Shown here: positions 1 through 53,625 of the stretch, one piece after another
How the letters are laid out: every line of letters starts with the position of its first letter
Position numbering within the stretch: the first letter of the stretch is position 1
IMG/VR virus record: IMGVR_UViG_3300045988_102159
Span: 78,631-142,630 of that record
Source of the DNA: a virus
Strand: one strand, 5' to 3'
Length of the DNA stretch: 64,000 nt
The notes under the pieces: model-generated
Seen by the model: only the letters and a program-made list of their open reading frames with translations
What the model was told of the DNA's origin: nothing
Database searches by the model: none
Program-made: the position numbers and the translations under genes

Positions 1-2743
1 TCTTAGATTTATTAACAAAATCACTCTTATTCAATCCGTCTTCTGCGGCACTAGCCATATTGTCAATAATGGTTTTTGCATTAGCAATATTTTCGTCATT
101 TAAGTAATCCTGAGCATCAGAAACATGTTGTTTTGCTTCATCTAGCTTTGACTTTGTATGTTCATACATAACATCGTCTTTGCTCATGCTATTAAGTTTT
201 TTCTGATACTTATCTACTTCTTTTTGAGCTTTAGCAGATGCTTCTGTAACATTACCGATTTTCTCTTGGATAGATAATCCGCTAGTATCTTGACCAATCC
301 AATTTGTAGTTAAACCAGCCTGATTGCTTAAAAAGTCATTCTCAAATGCAATTCTAGCGGCATTATTAACAAAAGGCGTATAAGTAGAAGCTCCTTTATC
401 TAGTGCAGTTAAAGCTTGCTTACCTTGTGACGCGGCTAATTCTTTAGATGCCGTACTAGCTTTACTAATTTTTTCGGCTAAAGTATCAAAGTCTCCTGAA
501 TTTTCAAGCGCCTTACCACCCGCGATGTCAAGAGAATCAATTAGATTATCAGTAGCACTCTTTAATTCATCAGTAACTTCCCCAGTTTGCTTATACGAAG
601 CATATGCCGCATCAAAGGAAGAGGTATCAACAGATGCCATCTGTTGAGTATTTGTATATGTCTCAACTTGTTTGTCTCTTTCAGCTTGATTTTTTTGATG
701 AAGAAAATTGAGCAAAGCGCCACCAGCGGTAGCGATTCCAATAGTTGCCATACCAAGAGGACTACTTAAACCTTCGATAAGCGCTTTAAATACTTGAAGA
801 CCAGCAGATGCAATTTTTGCTCCTGCACCAAAAGCCTTAAACTTAATAGTAGTTGCTGTAAGTCCATTCGCAAAAGAGCCAAGTTGCATTGAATCTAATG
901 CTGTTTGCATTTTTGCAACTTCATTTGTTTTAATGGATGCAAAAAGGTTTCCAAAATCTAACTTTGATGCTTCTTTAAGCTCAATAAAACTAGAAATCAA
1001 CTGTGGAACAGTCATAGAAAGATTCATTATAGTCTGTTCAACTTTTTCTCCAGTAGTTAAATCAGCATTTGCCCATATAGAACCTAAGTTTTGGAAAGAT
1101 TGCCAAGCAAAACTAAGTTGCCCAATAGCAGCTGTAGCTTGAACAATATTTTGTACGTCCATTTGCTTTTTCAGCGTATCTTCAAGACCTTCGTTTTGAC
1201 CTATAACTCCTCCAAGTACAGCATGTGCGCCAGTAACTTTTTGATTTTTACGGGTCAAATCGCCAGCTGAACCTACAGCAACACGACTTTTAACTGATGG
1301 ATTATTTGCTTTATCTAAAGCCCCTTCTGCTGTTTGGTAAACTTCATTCAAATATTCTTGAAGTTCATCTATTAAACCTAAACCTTCACCTAAATTATCA
1401 GAATTTAAACCATTCTTTTTACCATTAGCAAGTATTGAAAGTTGACGTAATACTTTAATAACTTTATAAATCGGCTGTAAACATTCAGTAGCTTGTTCAT
1501 CTAACACTGCAAAAATAGAATCTTTTCCTGCAATATTAGTTTCAGTTATACCGTAGGCTTTAAGTAACTTTTTAGTATCATTATATATAATTCGTAAGCT
1601 TGACCGACCATCTGTAGCAATTTTTGTATTGTCAGAATCAGCACCAAGTGCAGCAATTTTATCACGATGTTTTGGAATGGTTACTGAACTAATACCAGAA
1701 GATTCATTTGCAATTCCTTGGAGTCTTTGCTTTGCTTCGTTGGAAGAAATATTTTTATATAAATCTTCTCTGCCAGCATTTACATTGTTATAATACTCTT
1801 GAGTACCTCTTGCTTGAAGGACTCCATTTTCGTCTCTTAAAAGCTGAATATATTCTTTATATTCACCAGTTGCCGCGCCAATAGCCATATTAGTTTCATT
1901 AACGGATTCACGAAGTTTGGCTTCTGCATCAGTAACGCCATTAATTGCGTGGCTTGTGTCAATAAGTAGTTTATTATATTGTGTTTGCTGTTCATTGCTC
2001 ATGACTGATTGGTAATTTGTTCCAACATCAATCATATTTTTCAACGGGTCTAAAGACTTATCGTCAATCTTTTGATAACCCATTGCGTTAAGTTTTTCTT
2101 TTCTTACTTTGGCATTATTTTCTTTAATCTGCCCAAGTGAGAAATTCTGTGCCATCGCTGTTAAACCATGTGCTATCTGTTTACTAAATACTCTTGAAGC
2201 AGTAGCACCAAACAAAGTTAGTGCGGCAGAACCGCCACCAATAGAATCTATCAATTTCTGCATTAAATCTAATGCAGTAGATAATCCATCAATGAATCCA
2301 TAAAAATCAGAAGAATTGCCAAGACTATTGATAATACCTTCAAAAGTAGTCTGTAATTTATTTAATTTTCCTTGTAATGAATCAACATACTTTTCATTCA
2401 TTACATCTAGCGTACCGCTAGCATTTTCAGAACCAGCCTTATATTGATTATATAAGTCTGAACGATTCATCAATGCTTCAAAACGTGTAAGCTGGAATTT
2501 ACCAGCAAGCGTTTGACCTACGGCAGCTTTTTGCGTAGCATCAATAGAATCCCAAACTTTCATAAGGTCTTCCATGATGTTACCAACACCACGCATCTTT
2601 CCATCGCCGTCTGTGACTTGTACACCAATTTTCTCTAATGTGGATGTGACTTTTCCTAAGTCTACTCCGTCGTCTAGAGTCTTACCCATTGATAGGTCTG
2701 AAAAGCGTGCATAAAGTGTCTTTAATCCATTACCGATTTGTTC
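1..2743 (-). CDS. tail tape measure protein, exon 2 (3' end beyond window)
   Basis: Minus frame is open from 2743 to the window edge. It starts EQIGNGLKTLYARFSDL...GKMRGVGNIMEDL, a typical TMP motif. It joins in frame to exon 1 at 3110. Confidence 0.75.
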
Positions 2744-3109
2744 CTTGTGTCTTAAACTCGGTCGTTAATCGAGTCCATATATAAATCCTATATGCTTCTC
2801 GTTTCCAAGAAGAAGAGACTATATTTTCTATAAAAATAGAACATTCTTTCGGATAGACTTCTATCCTATCAGAGCCAATCCTGATAGTCGTTGAACCTTT
2901 TACTAAATAGCAAAGTGGCTGCGGATTATCCAATTTTTATATCTTTTTACTATACCTAAGACATTACTCTTCGCCAATATTATATCACTATAATATTTTA
3001 GTAATATAAAACTCTAAGGATTTTCCCGCAATTTAATATTTTTCTTATAATTTAAATTATAAGCCCAATATTTTCACTTATATATTTTAAGCAACAAGTA
3101 AAATCTTTT
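2744..3109 (-). mobile_element. group I intron (td-like, no ORF) in tape measure gene
   Basis: Minus-strand cores are AAATTGCGGGAAAATCC, GATAATCCGCAGCC, GGTTCAACGACTATC and AAATATAGTCTC. The element starts after a U and ends in G. All three frames are closed across it. Confidence 0.7.
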
Positions 3110-4078
3110 AGGGGCTTCTCGCGTAACGGATTCAATTGTCGCAATCTGGGCGTTTAATTGGTCTGTAGAAACTCCAAGCGTAGCTGCCGCTGATGCAGCT
3201 TTCTGGGATGCTTCTGCCAACTCTCCAACATCCGCAGCAGAAATATTTGCTACGTTAGCCCAAGAGTCTAGTGCAGCATTAAGTTTATCAATATTATTAT
3301 CAAGACCATAAGCATTCATGTATGCTGTGATTTGGTCCGACGTTGTAGCAGTGTCTTGTTGAGAGGCATTAGCTAATTTAGTTGACATCTCCGCAAGCTG
3401 CTGAGATTTGTTTAGGTCAAAACCTTGCTGGCCGAAGATAAGGGTACTATTCGTCATAGCAACAGTTGTAGAGCCAAGAGCCTTTGCAGCTTCATTAGCC
3501 TGCTTAGCATACTGAACCATCGAGTCACGTGAATAGTCAGTAACAAGCATAATTTGTGTCAGCGAATCATCAAGGTCTTTTGCATATTCAACAGATTGAC
3601 GAATAGAATCAGTAACGCCGTTAAAGGCGCTTGACATAATACCCCAACGGACTGTGTTGCCCATTGTGTTAAATAATTTATCTACCATTGAGCTGGTACT
3701 TTTGATACCAGTATCAATTTTACCCAATTGAGCAAGAACGTCTGTAAAGGCAATTTTACCAGTAGACTCTGCCATAGAAAATGAATTTTGCAGATTACGT
3801 AATGAAAGTCCACTCTCATTTAGCTGGCTAGTCAACTTTGTCATATCGAGCATTCCAATTTTAGTGTTAAAGCTCGAATTTAATGCTTTCTGAAATTTTT
3901 GAATATTGTTGATAGCCGCAGAAGCTTGCGTATTATCAATAATATCCCGAGACTGCATTTCCTTTAGCTGAACAGAAACTTTATTAAGCTCAGTCTGTAA
4001 TTGAGTCAAACCAGAACGGTCTAATGTAGTTCGTAGATTATACTCAATAGTATTTGAATATTTACTAATGGTAATCAC
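3110..4078 (-). CDS. tail tape measure protein, exon 1
   Basis: GTG start at 4078. The ORF-track frame 3074..4078 is coiled-coil and Q/S/A-rich. The exon is taken to end ...ATIESVTREAP at 3110, before the intron core. Confidence 0.7.
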
Positions 4079-6894: not shown

Positions 6895-7151
6895 CATTAT
6901 GTTATCTTATAGTTTCCTATAAGTTCAGACTATATCTTCACCTCTAATAATAGAGGGTTTTCCACTTCGCTTTGTTATAAAGCTACTCCATAAAGGATAG
7001 TCGTTGAACGTACTCGTTCGCTGCTGATTACCAGTTAAGGCTTCCAGCAATTCAAAAAAGATTTTACAACGCATCGCTGCGCAGGTACCCGAACATCACT
7101 TTAAAAGACTACTAACAGACCAATTAAAGACTAATAGCAGACATTCTAGAC
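6895..7151 (-). mobile_element. group I intron 4 of structural gene
   Basis: The P1 helix pairs exon GTACCU with the internal guide GGGTAC, including a G.U pair at the splice site. Cores are TTGAATTGCTGGAAGCC, GTAATCAGCAGC, GTTCAACGACTATCC and AGATATAGTCTG. It ends ...ATAATG. Confidence 0.75.
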
Positions 7152-7777
7152 AGGTACTTGGATCGCCATTGTTCGCCATAGAGAACGTAAAGTTACTCTG
7201 GATTTTACCACGAGGAATGACGAATTCGGCAGGAAGGTCTACGCCAGTCTCTTCATCACGGAAAAGTGTAGACGCTTCAATGTAATAGTAACCAGCGAAG
7301 TTCTCAGCATCAATCTGCATCTCATAGGCTTCATCGTAATGAACCTCATAGCAGTCAATGCGGACGGTATCGCCAGCCTTTACAGCGGCATCTTGCTTGC
7401 TATCGCCGGGTTCATCGGCGGCAAGCTGGAAAGCGATAGTTTTACCTTCGGCTTGAATCTCACCATGATCGCCAAGGGTGGCGGCAGCTAGGGTCTTGCC
7501 ATCATTGATAACAAAGACCTGCTTGTCGGTGACAGCAGAAAGGTAATTAGCTTGAGCACCAGCACTATCAAGAGTAACAGGATAGATAGGAGCTTCTTTT
7601 GTAACGATGATAGTCGCGCCATTGCGGTCTTCATCGGTTAACTTGGCGATAATCTTATCGCCAGAGGTTTCGGCAACCATATCATATGTAGCATGGACAT
7701 AGATAGGAGTCTTATTTTCACCAGTTTTCTTACCGTGTACTAGACCAGCACCAGACAGCATAGCGAAACTGGTAGGA
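7152..7777 (-). CDS. major tail/tube-like structural protein, exon 4
   Basis: Uses the frame of ORF 7096..7782 from (L)PTSFAMLSGAG to ...NNGDPST. The ORF-track tail CLECLLLVFNW... is intron read-through. Confidence 0.75.
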
Positions 7778-8028
7778 CTCATTAGAGAGTCTTCAAGAGT
7801 GCTTTTTAAACATATATACTTTCATATATAAACAGACTATATCTTATCTTTCGATTTTCTCACTTCCTTGCTTACAGCAAGTACACCTATACAGGTTAGT
7901 CGTTGAACCATTTTATTTGGCTGCGGATTGTCTAATTCTTATGGATTATTACTATAAAATAGTACCATAAAACTCTAAAGAGGTTCCCGCAATTCAAGAA
8001 ATTTAATGACCCCCACATTTGTTAATTA
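7778..8028 (-). mobile_element. group I intron 3 of structural gene
   Basis: The P1 helix pairs exon GACCCU with the internal guide GGGGTC, including a G.U pair. Cores are TTGAATTGCGGGAACCTCTTTAGAG, TAGACAATCCGCAGCC, GGTTCAACGACTAACC and AGATATAGTCTG. The terminal G is at 7778. Confidence 0.75.
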
Positions 8029-8047
8029 AGGGTCAGAGTCTTTTCAC
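8029..8047 (-). CDS. major tail/tube-like structural protein, exon 3 (micro-exon, 19-21 nt)
   Basis: This is the only open frame between two intron cores: (G)GT GAA AAG ACT CTG ACC CT = GEKTLT. The 5' boundary is ambiguous by 2 nt. Confidence 0.55.
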
Positions 8048-8256
8048 CACATTTGTATTATCTGTATCTTTATATATACATACAGCTTAGACTATATCTT
8101 TATTCTTTTAGAATATCTTGCACTTCGGATTGTAGCATCCTACACCTTAAAGGTTAGTCGTTGAACTTTACTAAAAGTCTTAGCTGCGGATTCCCCTCGA
8201 AAGGGCTTTCCCGCAATTCACAAAATTTATTTCATTCTTAATGGTATACAAGCATT
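8048..8256 (-). mobile_element. group I intron 2 of structural gene
   Basis: The P1 helix is CTTAATG / CATTAAG. Cores are GTGAATTGCGGGAAAGCCC, GAATCCGCAGC, GTTCAACGACTAACC and AGATATAGTCTAAG. Boundaries are +/-2 nt. Confidence 0.65.
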
Positions 8257-8305
8257 AAGCGGCCTGAGCAGTGAAGAAACTTTCCCAGGCGATTAGACGA
8301 GGATT
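8257..8305 (-). CDS. major tail/tube-like structural protein, exon 2
   Basis: Reads NPRLIAWESFFTAQAA and continues exon 1 (...YAQGGKG|NPRLIAWE). It is preceded by the intron terminal G at 8306. Confidence 0.65.
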
Positions 8306-9046
8306 CATAATATTCTAAATAGGTCGTTACTCTATTTATTGTTTACACAACTATATATTGCTATATAGATTAGACTATATCTTATGCTAGATTACTAACA
8401 TTTTCCTATTTCAAGCTACTTAGCTTTACTTCCTTGCGGAATAGTCGTTGAACTTTATTGAGTTATCCACCTATAACCTCCTGTAGTATGACGTTTACCG
8501 CTACAAACAAGGCTAATTTTGCTAACACTACAACCTGTCTGACGATGCGCTTCTGACATACTTTTAAATTCACCAATAACATTTCCATTTAAATCAAGTT
8601 GGTAAACAGGAATCTCTGGATAACTTCCACTATTTACTTTATGCTGAACATAGCTATCATTCTTTTGACGAATAACCCAACGTAAATTTGTCAAATTATT
8701 GTCATCTCGAATTTCGTTTATATGATGACATTCCTCTCCTTCTAATGGAGGGCGAAGAAAAGTCTCAAGAACCAAACGATGAATACGCCAATGTTTATAA
8801 GTGTTATTCTCTGTATTATATAACTTTACATACTGGTATCCATCTTTGTCATATTGAGGTTTCAACATACGTTTAGTTGAAACAGTTCTAATTTCACCAT
8901 GTTCATTTACCTCATAATAAGGAAAATCTTTTACAACTTTCCACATAAATAGCGCTCCAATCTTAGATGCTGATTGTCTTATAATACTTATATTATATCA
9001 TAAGAGTTTCCAGCAGTCAAGGAAATTTTACAAGAGCAATCTATTT
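8306..9046 (-). mobile_element. group I intron 1 of structural gene, carrying an HNH homing endonuclease ORF
   Basis: Cores are CCTTGACTGCTGGAAACTC, GACAATCAGCATC, [ORF], GTTCAACGACTATTCC and AGATATAGTCTAATC. It starts after GGU and ends ...ATTATG. Confidence 0.75.
8455..8946 (-). CDS. HNH (HNH_3/NUMOD4-type) homing endonuclease, intron-encoded
   Basis: Motifs FPYYEVNEHGEI, HRLV..F, CHHINEIRDDNNLTNLRW and a C-terminal IENR-like GGYRW. It has its own GGAG RBS inside the intron. Confidence 0.8.
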   Translation of the reverse strand: MWKVVKDFPYYEVNEHGEIRTVSTKRMLKPQYDKDGYQYVKLYNTENNTYKHWRIHRLVLETFLRPPLEGEECHHINEIRDDNNLTNLRWVIRQKNDSYVQHKVNSGSYPEIPVYQLDLNGNVIGEFKSMSEAHRQTGCSVSKISLVCSGKRHTTGGYRWITQ

Positions 9047-52428: not shown

Positions 52429-52497
52429 TTGGAGCGGCAAGACTCGAACTTGCGACACGTTGAGTTAATAATATTCTACCAACTGAATTACACTCCA
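52429..52497 (-). ncRNA. tRNA-like element lacking an anticodon stem
   Basis: Acceptor is TGGAGTG/CGCTCCA. D-arm is ATTC-AGTTGGTA-GAAT and T-arm is GCAAG-TTCGAGT-CTTGC. The 19 nt in between cannot pair. Flanks extend the acceptor helix to ~14 bp. Confidence 0.45.
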
Positions 52498-53538: not shown

Positions 53539-53556
53539 GTAATTTTTTTAACAGGC

Positions 53557-53625
53557 TGGCTCTTTCTGTGCTGCCCAGAAATTTTATGATTCAGAGTCAT
53601 ATGTTCTACTGTTGAACTAAGAGCC
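53557..53625 (-). tRNA. tRNA-Gln (CTG), non-canonical elbow
   Basis: Hand-folded. Acceptor is GGCTCTT/AAGAGCC. D-arm is GTTC-AACAGTA-GAAC, anticodon arm is TATGA-CTCTGAA-TCATA, and T-arm is TTCTG-GGCAGCA-CAGAA. No CCA is encoded. Confidence 0.55.

What the first reader, a model, noticed from the sequence alone, without database searches (positions are those of the whole stretch)
2744..3109. The tape measure gene is interrupted by a fifth member of the same intron family
ORF 3074..4078 ends in junk (...TREAP KRFYLLLKIYK stop). About 370 nt later the TMP frame resumes with EQIGNGLKTLYARF, a motif that normally follows directly after ...TRE(S/A)xE in tape measure proteins.

The gap has the same cores (AAATTGCGGGAAAATCC, GATAATCCGCAGCC, GGTTCAACGACTATC, AAATATAGTCTC) plus P9-type hairpins, including CTTCTTG-GAAA-CGAGAAG. 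All three frames are closed across it.

The 5' junction lacks an obvious G.U pair in my hand fold, so the boundaries are uncertain by a few nt.
Basis: partly seen in the sequence, partly recalled or inferred. Interest (0 to 1): 0.65.

Follow-up and report, generated by a model that had tools for sequence, protein, structure and literature searches.

The report
Group I intron splitting phage tape-measure gene

Summary
Confirmed. On the minus strand the tape measure (TMP) frame stops making sense after ...TREAP (last exon base U3110) and resumes at 2743 with EQIGNGLKTLYARF. The 366 nt between them (3109..2744) are closed in all three frames.

About 34 closely related IMG/VR phage contigs have an uninterrupted TMP. 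Their sequence joins window 3110 directly to 2743 and gives the same peptide, TIESVTREAPEQIGNGLKTL.

The insert matches Rfam RF00028 at 41.2 bits (E 4e-7 window-wide, below the curated 50-bit cut-off). It can be folded into a complete group I structure, P1 to P9.2, with P7.1/P7.2 (IA type). The last intron base is G2744.

The same intron, 98-99% identical, sits at the same site in three other phage lineages. One has TMP exons only 58-77% identical. One carries a LAGLIDADG homing-endonuclease ORF in the P1a loop. So this is a mobile intron, and the window's copy has no ORF.

Splicing itself was not tested. Group I introns in prophage TMP genes were reported in 2008, so this is a new member of a known kind. 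The window holds six such candidates, not five.

The parts
3110..4078 (-). TMP exon 1 (323 codons, GTG start at 4078; last base U3110, last codon CCU = Pro of ...TREAP)
   Evidence: ORF list. Hits PHROG tape-measure profiles: phrog_4211 positions 486-765, phrog_34405 positions 49-330. Aligns to locus positions ..3452/3453 of intron-less relatives.
2744..3109 (-). Group I intron, 366 nt, no ORF, 28% G+C; first base A3109, last base G2744 (omega-G)
   Evidence: RF00028 41.2 bits. Absent from about 34 relatives, which join 3110 to 2743. Stops in all frames. Full helix set counted.
1..2743 (-). TMP exon 2 (starts GAA CAA AUC GGU = EQIG; open for 914 codons and runs off the window)
   Evidence: Translation. 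phrog_4211 positions 769-1264 and phrog_34405 positions 331-549 continue directly from exon 1.
3064..3112 (-). P1: C3112 C3111 U3110 | A3109 A3108 paired with U3068 U3067 G3066 G3065 G3064. U3110.G3066 is the splice-site wobble; GGG(3066-3064) is the internal guide.
   Evidence: ViennaRNA minimum-free-energy fold of exon plus intron 5' part. Invariant in all 4 copies.
3072..3103 (-). P1a, an extension of P1 (3103-3094 with 3081-3072). In relative L033 its loop holds the LAGLIDADG ORF.
   Evidence: Two compensatory pairs (A-U to G-C, U-A to C-G) between the window and L033.
3044..3063 (-). P2 hairpin CUUAUAAU-UUAA-AUUAUAAG
3035..3040 (-). P3 5' strand AAUAUU (pairs with 2845-2840 AAUGUU)
   Evidence: U.G in the window is U-A in the three other copies.
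2920..3030 (-). P4 (3030-3025/2925-2920), P5 (3021-3018/2931-2928) and a roughly 85-nt P5 extension
   Evidence: This domain is 74-77% identical to introns in Staphylococcus, Bacillus, Enterococcus and Vibrio phages.
2895..2919 (-). P6/P6a
2884..2889 (-). P7 5' strand GACUAU (pairs with 2822-2817 AUAGUC; pseudoknot with P3; site of the guanosine pocket in group I introns)
   Evidence: Lies within the exact 12-mer shared by all six candidates.
2851..2883 (-). P7.1 (2883-2870) and P7.2 (2866-2851), the two extra hairpins between P7 and P3' typical of subgroup IA
   Evidence: Two hairpins of different sequence sit at the same place in introns 6906, 7813 and 8068.
2817..2845 (-). P3 3' strand (2845-2840), P8 (2839-2828), J8/7, P7 3' strand (2822-2817)
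2755..2812 (-). P9 (CUUCUUG-GAAA-CGAGAAG, 2812-2795), P9.1 (2794-2776), P9.2 (2775-2755)
   Evidence: U-A becomes U.G in P9.2 of L038.

Best explanation
The tape measure gene of this phage is one gene in two exons (4078..3110 and 2743..beyond the window, minus strand). A 366-nt, ORF-less group I intron of the IA type common in phages separates them.

Inferred mechanism:
- In the late transcript the intron folds into P1-P9.2.
- Its internal guide GGG (3066-3064) pairs with the exon end CCU, placing U3110 in a U.G wobble.
- A free guanosine bound in P7 attacks after U3110.
- The freed exon end then attacks after the terminal G2744.
- The ligated mRNA reads ...SVTREAP-EQIGNGLKTLYARF..., restoring the most conserved motif of the PhageMin_Tail domain.

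The element is a mobile intron that has lost its homing-endonuclease gene. A sister copy in another phage still carries a LAGLIDADG ORF in the P1a loop. That enzyme (inferred) cuts intron-less TMP alleles at this conserved site, and repair copies the intron plus short flanks.

Shown here: exact colinearity with intron-less alleles, the structure, presence/absence polymorphism, near-identity across diverged hosts, and the endonuclease-bearing variant. Inferred: catalysis and homing.
For: 1. Precise insertion.
- About 34 IMG/VR relatives, some at 99% amino-acid identity, encode the 305-aa test segment without interruption.
- Window exon 1 ends at their position 3452/3453 and exon 2 begins at 3454.
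- The spliced peptide TIESVTREAPEQIGNGLKTL is identical to theirs.

2. One protein, not two.
- PF10145 matches residues 195-404 as a single full-length stretch (profile 1-201 of 201) across junction residue 323/324.
- tblastn to annotated phage TMPs gives single pieces across the junction.
- Exon 1 and exon 2 hit consecutive positions of the same PHROG profiles (765/769, 490/493, 330/331).

3. RNA.
- RF00028 scores 41.2 bits, E 4.4e-7.
- 94 base pairs in 15 helices, including the P3/P7 pseudoknot, are 99.7% standard pairs in four copies, against 33-46% when partners are slid.
- There are two compensatory pairs in P1a, and one-sided U-A/U.G changes in P3 and P9.2.
- The splice-site U3110.G3066 is predicted independently by the minimum-free-energy fold.
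- The terminal base is G2744. The folding z-score is -4.5.

4. Mobility.
- The intron is 98.6% identical in L040, whose exons are only 58-77% identical. The 50 nt on each side of the intron are 86-88% identical, as expected for co-conversion.
- L033 has the same core (99.1%) plus a 271-aa ORF that hits LAGLIDADG_3 at 29.3 bits, above the 22.5 cut-off.

5. Relatives of the catalytic domain lie in split genes of known phages: the Silviavirus endolysin and the Bacillus phage Internexus gyrB.
Against: - The RF00028 score is below Rfam's gathering threshold (41.2 against 50 bits).
- P1 has only three base pairs to the 5' exon (CCU/GGG).
- P10 with the 3' exon is at most two pairs (G2743.U3067, A2742-U3068).
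- A competing helix AAGCCC/GGGCUU without a wobble can form if P2 is open.
- The four copies are 98-99% identical, so covariation support is thin outside P1a.
- No RNA or protein evidence of splicing was obtainable.
- This copy has no endonuclease, so it cannot home on its own.
Confidence: 0.93

Rival explanations
1. The insert is a decayed, no longer self-splicing relic of a group I intron. The TMP would then be a pseudogene, or be made as two polypeptides (a 334-aa N-terminal piece, and a C-terminal piece restarted at ATG 2689).
For: The RF00028 score is below gathering. P1 is short and P10 weak. There is no endonuclease ORF. The first in-frame start-like codon in the exon-2 frame is ATG 2689.
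Against: All core helices are intact in four independent assemblies. The few substitutions keep pairing or are compensatory. A restart at 2689 would delete the conserved EQIGNGLKTLYARF motif. Every intron-less relative makes one continuous protein. A phage cannot build a tail without a tape measure protein, a point that rests on established knowledge of tailed-phage assembly rather than on a test here.
Confidence: 0.04
2. The gap is a non-intron insertion (a small mobile element or an assembly artefact), and the match to group I cores is incidental.
For: None beyond the sub-threshold Rfam score.
Against: The same 366-367-nt insert at the same nucleotide occurs in contigs from separate assemblies (L038/L050, L040/L051, L033/L049, L052). 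There is no target-site duplication and no terminal repeats. The boundaries obey the U(-1)/terminal-G rule. A complete P1-P9 fold is present.
Confidence: 0.01
3. The ribosome bypasses or frameshifts across the gap, or the interruption is an intein.
For: Phage tail genes are known to use recoding. This is general knowledge and was not tested here.
Against: 366 nt with 8-11 stops in every frame is far beyond any known bypass. An intein needs an open frame. The insert is absent, to the nucleotide, from relatives.
Confidence: 0.01

Closest known systems
Group I introns TMP-IVS1, -IVS2, -IVS3a/b in the tape measure gene of Bacillus cereus-group prophages (Tourasse and Kolsto 2008, PMC2504315)
   Same: Same host gene. 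Subgroup IA1/IA2. Several insertion sites within one TMP gene. Copies with and without a homing endonuclease. Near-identical introns shared by different phages. P1 adapted to the local exon sequence.
   Different: Different phage lineage (uncultured, about 140-kb contigs; the nearest genome-collection hit is binned with a Clostridium MAG). No nucleotide similarity to those prophages was seen. Whether any IVS site corresponds to TREAP|EQIG could not be checked, because the figure is not held.
Endolysin-gene intron of Staphylococcus Herelleviridae (e.g. vB_SauH_DELF3, Silviavirus) and the gyrB intron of Bacillus phage Internexus
   Same: The P3-P6 domain (intron positions 77-227) is 75-77% identical. 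The matches lie between the two halves of a split gene.
   Different: Other host genes. The staphylococcal intron carries an AP2-domain ORF. The peripheral parts (P1a, P7.1/7.2, P9.x) do not align.
Phage Twort orf142 (tail tube) with three group I introns; Cluster J mycobacteriophage capsid and tail introns (PMC3706429; PMC11878797 discussion)
   Same: Self-splicing introns in late, virion-structure genes. Several introns in one structural gene, as at window 6906-8605.
   Different: Splicing was shown experimentally there and is only inferred here. The host genes differ.
T4 td/nrdB/nrdD introns (archetypal phage IA2 introns; own knowledge)
   Same: Same mechanism. P7.1/P7.2 present. Optional distribution among relatives. 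Endonuclease-driven homing with co-conversion of flanks.
   Different: The T4 introns sit in nucleotide-metabolism genes and carry GIY-YIG or HNH enzymes. Here the sister copy carries a LAGLIDADG enzyme placed in a P1 extension.

Membership tests
Group I catalytic intron (RF00028) | Match to the Rfam covariance model at or above the curated gathering score (50 bits) | tested here: not met
   41.2 bits; E 6.2e-9 on 901 nt and 4.4e-7 on the whole window. This is a curated cut-off of one model, not a biochemical criterion. Rfam's alignment deletes P8 and mis-places P3' because of the long inserts in P5 and between P7 and P3'.
Group I catalytic intron | Conserved core: P3-P4-P5-P6 and P7-P3'-P8-P7' with the P3/P7 pseudoknot | tested here: met
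   All helices were located. 99.7% of 376 cells are standard pairs in four copies, against 33-46% with slid partners. The structure was derived from these sequences, so the slid control is lenient.
Group I catalytic intron | 5' splice site follows a U that forms a U.G wobble with the internal guide sequence in P1 | tested here: met
   U3110.G3066 lies within CCU|AA / UUGGG. It is found by the unconstrained minimum-free-energy fold and is invariant in 4 copies. Only 3 pairs involve the exon.
Group I catalytic intron | Last intron nucleotide is G (omega-G) | tested here: met
   G2744. The boundary is fixed by intron-less alleles. The only other boundary pair giving the same protein (shifted by -1) would have C(-1) and a terminal A.
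Group I catalytic intron | P10 pairing between the guide sequence and the 3' exon | tested here: inconclusive
   At most G2743.U3067 and A2742-U3068, read directly from the sequence.
Group I catalytic intron | Removal restores a reading frame colinear with uninterrupted homologs | tested here: met
Group I catalytic intron | Guanosine-dependent self-splicing of the RNA | not testable with these tools
Subgroup IA (phage-type, IA2-like) | Two extra hairpins P7.1 and P7.2 between P7 and P3' | tested here: met
   2883-2870 and 2866-2851. The same layout with different stem sequences occurs in introns 6906, 7813 and 8068. Assignment to IA2 rather than IA1 or IA3 was not tested.
Mobile (homing) intron | Presence/absence polymorphism at one site, an endonuclease gene, and co-conversion of flanks | tested here: met
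   About 34 empty sites against 3 occupied lineages plus the window. LAGLIDADG_3 ORF in L033. Intron 98.6% identical against exons 58-77%, with flanks at 86-88%. The window's own copy has no ORF, so it is not autonomous.

The most novel reading that the evidence does not exclude
The roughly 30 nt encoding TREAPEQIGNGLK in tape measure genes may be a shared homing hotspot contested by several unrelated intron and endonuclease lineages.

Supporting observations:
- Truncated gene calls and loci show at least four insertion positions: after AP, after APE(N), after IG and after GNGL(K/R).
- At least two endonuclease types are involved: LAGLIDADG, and a zinc-ribbon/DUF2726 type.
- A structurally different insert sits at the homologous codon boundary in a Clostridium botulinum phage-plasmid.

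If so, TMP introns could act as markers that bias inheritance of the tail module in mixed infections (marker exclusion), rather than being neutral passengers.
Probability: 0.3. Interest if true: 0.5.

Novelty: new member of a known kind. Interest (0 to 1): 0.3.

Why it matters
For annotation: the two ORFs (3074..4078, and the open frame from 2743 down) should be joined into one tape measure protein of more than 1,237 residues. Tail-length estimates, or 'split TMP' calls in this phage group, would otherwise be wrong.

For biology: this adds a clean, population-level example of the intron life cycle in a late structural gene of uncultured gut- or rumen-type phages. The data show empty sites, an endonuclease-bearing copy, ORF-less copies, and transfer between TMP alleles only 58-77% identical. 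They also show that the most conserved TMP motif is a repeatedly used target.

It does not change what is known about group I introns.

Tried and rejected
- A megablast of the region against 50,697 phage records found nothing. The phage has no sequenced close relative in GenBank.
- Public RNA and DNA read data were not available for this window, so splicing could not be observed.
- Rfam's own alignment takes UAUAAGU(3082-3076)/GCUUAUA(3064-3058) as P1. I rejected this for three reasons. A splice after U3076 cannot be combined with any terminal G to restore the frame. It would insert KRFYLLLKIYK into the conserved motif. The intron-less alleles fix the junction at 3110|2743. Those bases belong instead to P1a and P2.
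- The alternative P1 AAGCCC/GGGCUU (second fold) has no wobble and competes with P2. I kept it only as a possible folding competitor.
- The 67-aa TTG ORF 2730..2933(-) inside the intron runs in a different frame from exon 2 and crosses the splice site. I treated it as chance.
- Scans for more copies of this intron found only the same three lineages (viral contigs; metagenomes). Deeper covariation was therefore not obtainable.
- A broader P4-P5 pattern added L042, another TMP with two introns at other sites, and L043, which had no RF00028 hit at E <= 0.001 and no blastn similarity to the window's TMP region.
- A covariance model of the whole intron was not built, because its length would exceed the calibration limit.
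- The genome-collection scan gave one uninterrupted relative in a Clostridium-labelled MAG. This is a weak hint about the host only.

Full report
**Observation.** On the minus strand, ORF 4078..3074 reads as a tape measure protein (TMP) up to ...IATIESVTREAP. It then runs into KRFYLLLKIYK and a stop. From 2743 downward the frame EQIGNGLKTLYARF... is open for 914 codons to the edge of the window. The 366 nt between them (3109..2744) have 8, 11 and 9 stops in the three frames. Their G+C is 28%, against 36-40% in the exons.

**It is one gene.**
- Joining 3110 to 2743 gives a protein in which Pfam PF10145 (PhageMin_Tail) matches as a single full-length stretch. This covers profile positions 1-201 of 201 and residues 195-404, across the junction at 323/324.
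- The two halves hit consecutive positions of the same PHROG tape-measure profiles. These are phrog_4211 (486-765 then 769-1264), phrog_14917 (294-490 then 493-641) and phrog_34405 (49-330 then 331-549).
- tblastn of the spliced junction region against GenBank phages gives single uninterrupted pieces in 81 records annotated as tape measure proteins.

**The boundaries are exact.**
- A scan of IMG/VR found 38 related loci.
- In about 34 of them the 305-aa test segment is encoded by 915 contiguous bases, some at 99% amino-acid identity.
- At DNA level, window exon 1 aligns up to their position 3452/3453 and exon 2 starts at 3454.
- The spliced window sequence translates to TIESVTREAPEQIGNGLKTL, identical to L001-L013 and many others.
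- Only one other boundary pair gives the same protein, a shift by -1. It would put C before the 5' splice site and A at the intron end. The pair 3110|3109 and 2744|2743 gives U and G, as group I introns require.
- The closest empty alleles have CCA for the proline codon. All occupied alleles have CCU.

**It is a group I intron.**
- RF00028 matches 2795-3085(-) with 41.2 bits. That is below Rfam's 50-bit gathering score, but E is 6e-9 locally and 4e-7 window-wide. It was therefore missed in the default scan.
- I placed all helices by hand and by ViennaRNA:

| Helix | Window coordinates |
|---|---|
| P1 | 3112-3108 / 3068-3064 |
| P1a | 3103-3094 / 3081-3072 |
| P2 | 3063-3056 / 3051-3044 |
| P3 | 3040-3035 / 2845-2840 |
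| P4 | 3030-3025 / 2925-2920 |
| P5 (plus a roughly 85-nt extension) | 3021-3018 / 2931-2928 |
| P6/P6a | 2919-2895 |
| P7 | 2889-2884 / 2822-2817 |
| P7.1 | 2883-2870 |
| P7.2 | 2866-2851 |
| P8 | 2839-2828 |
| P9 | 2812-2795 |
| P9.1 | 2794-2776 |
| P9.2 | 2775-2755 |

- The unconstrained minimum-free-energy fold of exon plus intron pairs CCU|AA with UUGGG. The splice-site U3110 therefore sits in a U.G wobble with G3066.
- Rfam's alignment had taken part of P1a/P2 for P1. That choice is incompatible with the reading frame and with the empty alleles.
- P10 is weak, at most two pairs.
- The two hairpins between P7 and P3' mark subgroup IA. Introns 6906, 7813 and 8068 have two hairpins of different sequence at the same place.
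- On the four known copies, 94 pairs are 99.7% standard, against 33-46% with slid partners. There are two compensatory pairs in P1a, and one-sided U-A/U.G changes in P3 and P9.2.
- Because the copies are 98-99% identical and the structure was derived from them, this test is weak outside P1a.
- The intron folds with z = -4.5.

**It is, or was, mobile.** The same intron sits at the same nucleotide in three other lineages.
- L038/L050/L052: 97.8% identical.
- L040/L051: 98.6% identical, although the TMP exons are only 58-77% identical. The 50 nt on either side are 86-88% identical, the pattern left by co-conversion.
- L033/L049: the core is 99.1% identical. This 1,207-nt version carries a 271-aa ORF with an N-terminal helix-turn-helix and a LAGLIDADG_3 domain (29.3 bits, cut-off 22.5). 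The ORF lies in the loop of P1a, and its last codons overlap the guide sequence.
- The window's copy has no ORF, so it is a non-autonomous derivative.

**Context.**
- The P3-P6 domain is 74-77% identical to sequences in many phages.
- Two of these were checked, and both lie between halves of split genes. One is the endolysin of a Staphylococcus Silviavirus, the other gyrB of Bacillus phage Internexus.
- The window has six RF00028 candidates on the minus strand, each with the exact 12-mer GTTCAACGACTA. Otherwise they share only the cores.

**The TMP motif is a repeated target.**
- L035 has a different intron 12 nt downstream, after EQIG, with a zinc-ribbon/DUF2726 ORF.
- L038 and L033 have a further insertion at window position ~3425.
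- L042 has two introns at other TMP sites.
- Dozens of truncated gene calls end after TREAP, APE, APEN, EQIG or GNGL(K/R).
- In a Clostridium botulinum phage-plasmid the TMP is split at the homologous codon boundary (TRESG|ETIG) by an insert of about 390 nt. The insert is absent from another strain. RF00028 does not recognise it.

**Comparison with what is known.**
- Group I introns in prophage TMP genes, at three sites, subgroups IA1/IA2, with and without endonucleases, were described for the Bacillus cereus group in 2008 (PMC2504315).
- Introns in other virion genes are known from Twort, Tuc2009 and Cluster J mycobacteriophages (PMC3706429; PMC11878797).
- The finding is therefore a new member of a known kind.

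**What is not shown.** Splicing and homing are inferred. No RNA data could be consulted.

**Verdict.** Confidence that this is a group I intron spliced at 3110|2743 is 0.93. Interest is modest (0.3).

Noticed in passing
window 2795-3085, 6906-7137, 7813-8038, 8068-8286, 8351-8605, 20752-20954 (all - strand): There are six RF00028 candidates in the window, not five. Three pass Rfam's gathering score. Three (47.2, 41.2 and 41.0 bits) appear only in the E-value scan. All six carry the exact 12-mer GTTCAACGACTA.
   Followed up: partly
window 6906-8605 (-): Four of the candidates lie within 1.7 kb of one virion structural protein gene (phrog_2729). If all are real, they leave micro-exons of about 29 nt (8039-8067) and 64 nt (8287-8350). 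Their boundaries were not verified against intron-less homologs.
   Followed up: no
window 8606-8946 (-): An HNH endonuclease ORF (phrog_959, E 2e-28) lies directly upstream of, and probably inside, the 8351-8605 intron candidate. At least one intron in the window may therefore still carry its homing enzyme.
   Followed up: partly
window 20752-20954 (-): This intron candidate (47.2 bits) splits a phrog_15503 homolog. The upstream piece covers profile positions 32-121 and the downstream piece 131-214.
   Followed up: partly
L038 1555-2995 and L033 1182-1479 (equivalent to window ~3423-3427): Two relatives carry another insertion in the TMP, 1,441 nt in L038 and 298 nt in L033, about 315 nt upstream of this intron's site. 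The window is empty at that site.
   Followed up: partly
L035 3466-4950 (approximate; 12 nt downstream of the window's site, after EQIG): This is a different group I-like intron with a 308-aa ORF (DUF723, treble-clef zinc ribbon, DUF2726). The first codons of its exon 2 differ (NIIRK instead of NGLK). The matching truncated protein cluster P0017 has 250 member sequences, so this variant is commoner than the window's.
   Followed up: partly
proteins P0017-P0088: Gene calls for related TMPs stop after TREAP, TREAPE, APEN(I), EQIG/ENIG and GNGL(K/R), each followed by a short unrelated tail. This implies at least four insertion positions within about 27 nt of the conserved motif.
   Followed up: partly
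L044 (NZ_CP063817.1, Clostridium botulinum strain Stockholm plasmid p1), about 2611-3000: The TMP is split TRESG|ETIGTSLKT by an insert of about 390 nt at the homologous codon boundary. The insert is absent from strain 1873 p1 (L053). It starts after a U, ends in G, and can form a P1-like hairpin GGU|AA/UUGCC. Its folding z-score is -4.2. RF00028 gives no hit, even at E <= 10.
   Followed up: partly
L042 1459-1842 and 1992-2347: A more distant TMP has two RF00028 candidates at other sites in the PhageMin_Tail domain. The second is followed by a 319-aa zinc-ribbon ORF like that of L035.
   Followed up: no
window 52429-52497, 53556-53626, 53748-53818 (-): Three tRNA genes were found by Rfam. They were not examined further.
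   Followed up: no
L044 575-636: A RAGATH-18 RNA (61 bits) lies next to a TnpB gene, just upstream of the Clostridium botulinum TMP gene. It is unrelated to the finding.
   Followed up: no
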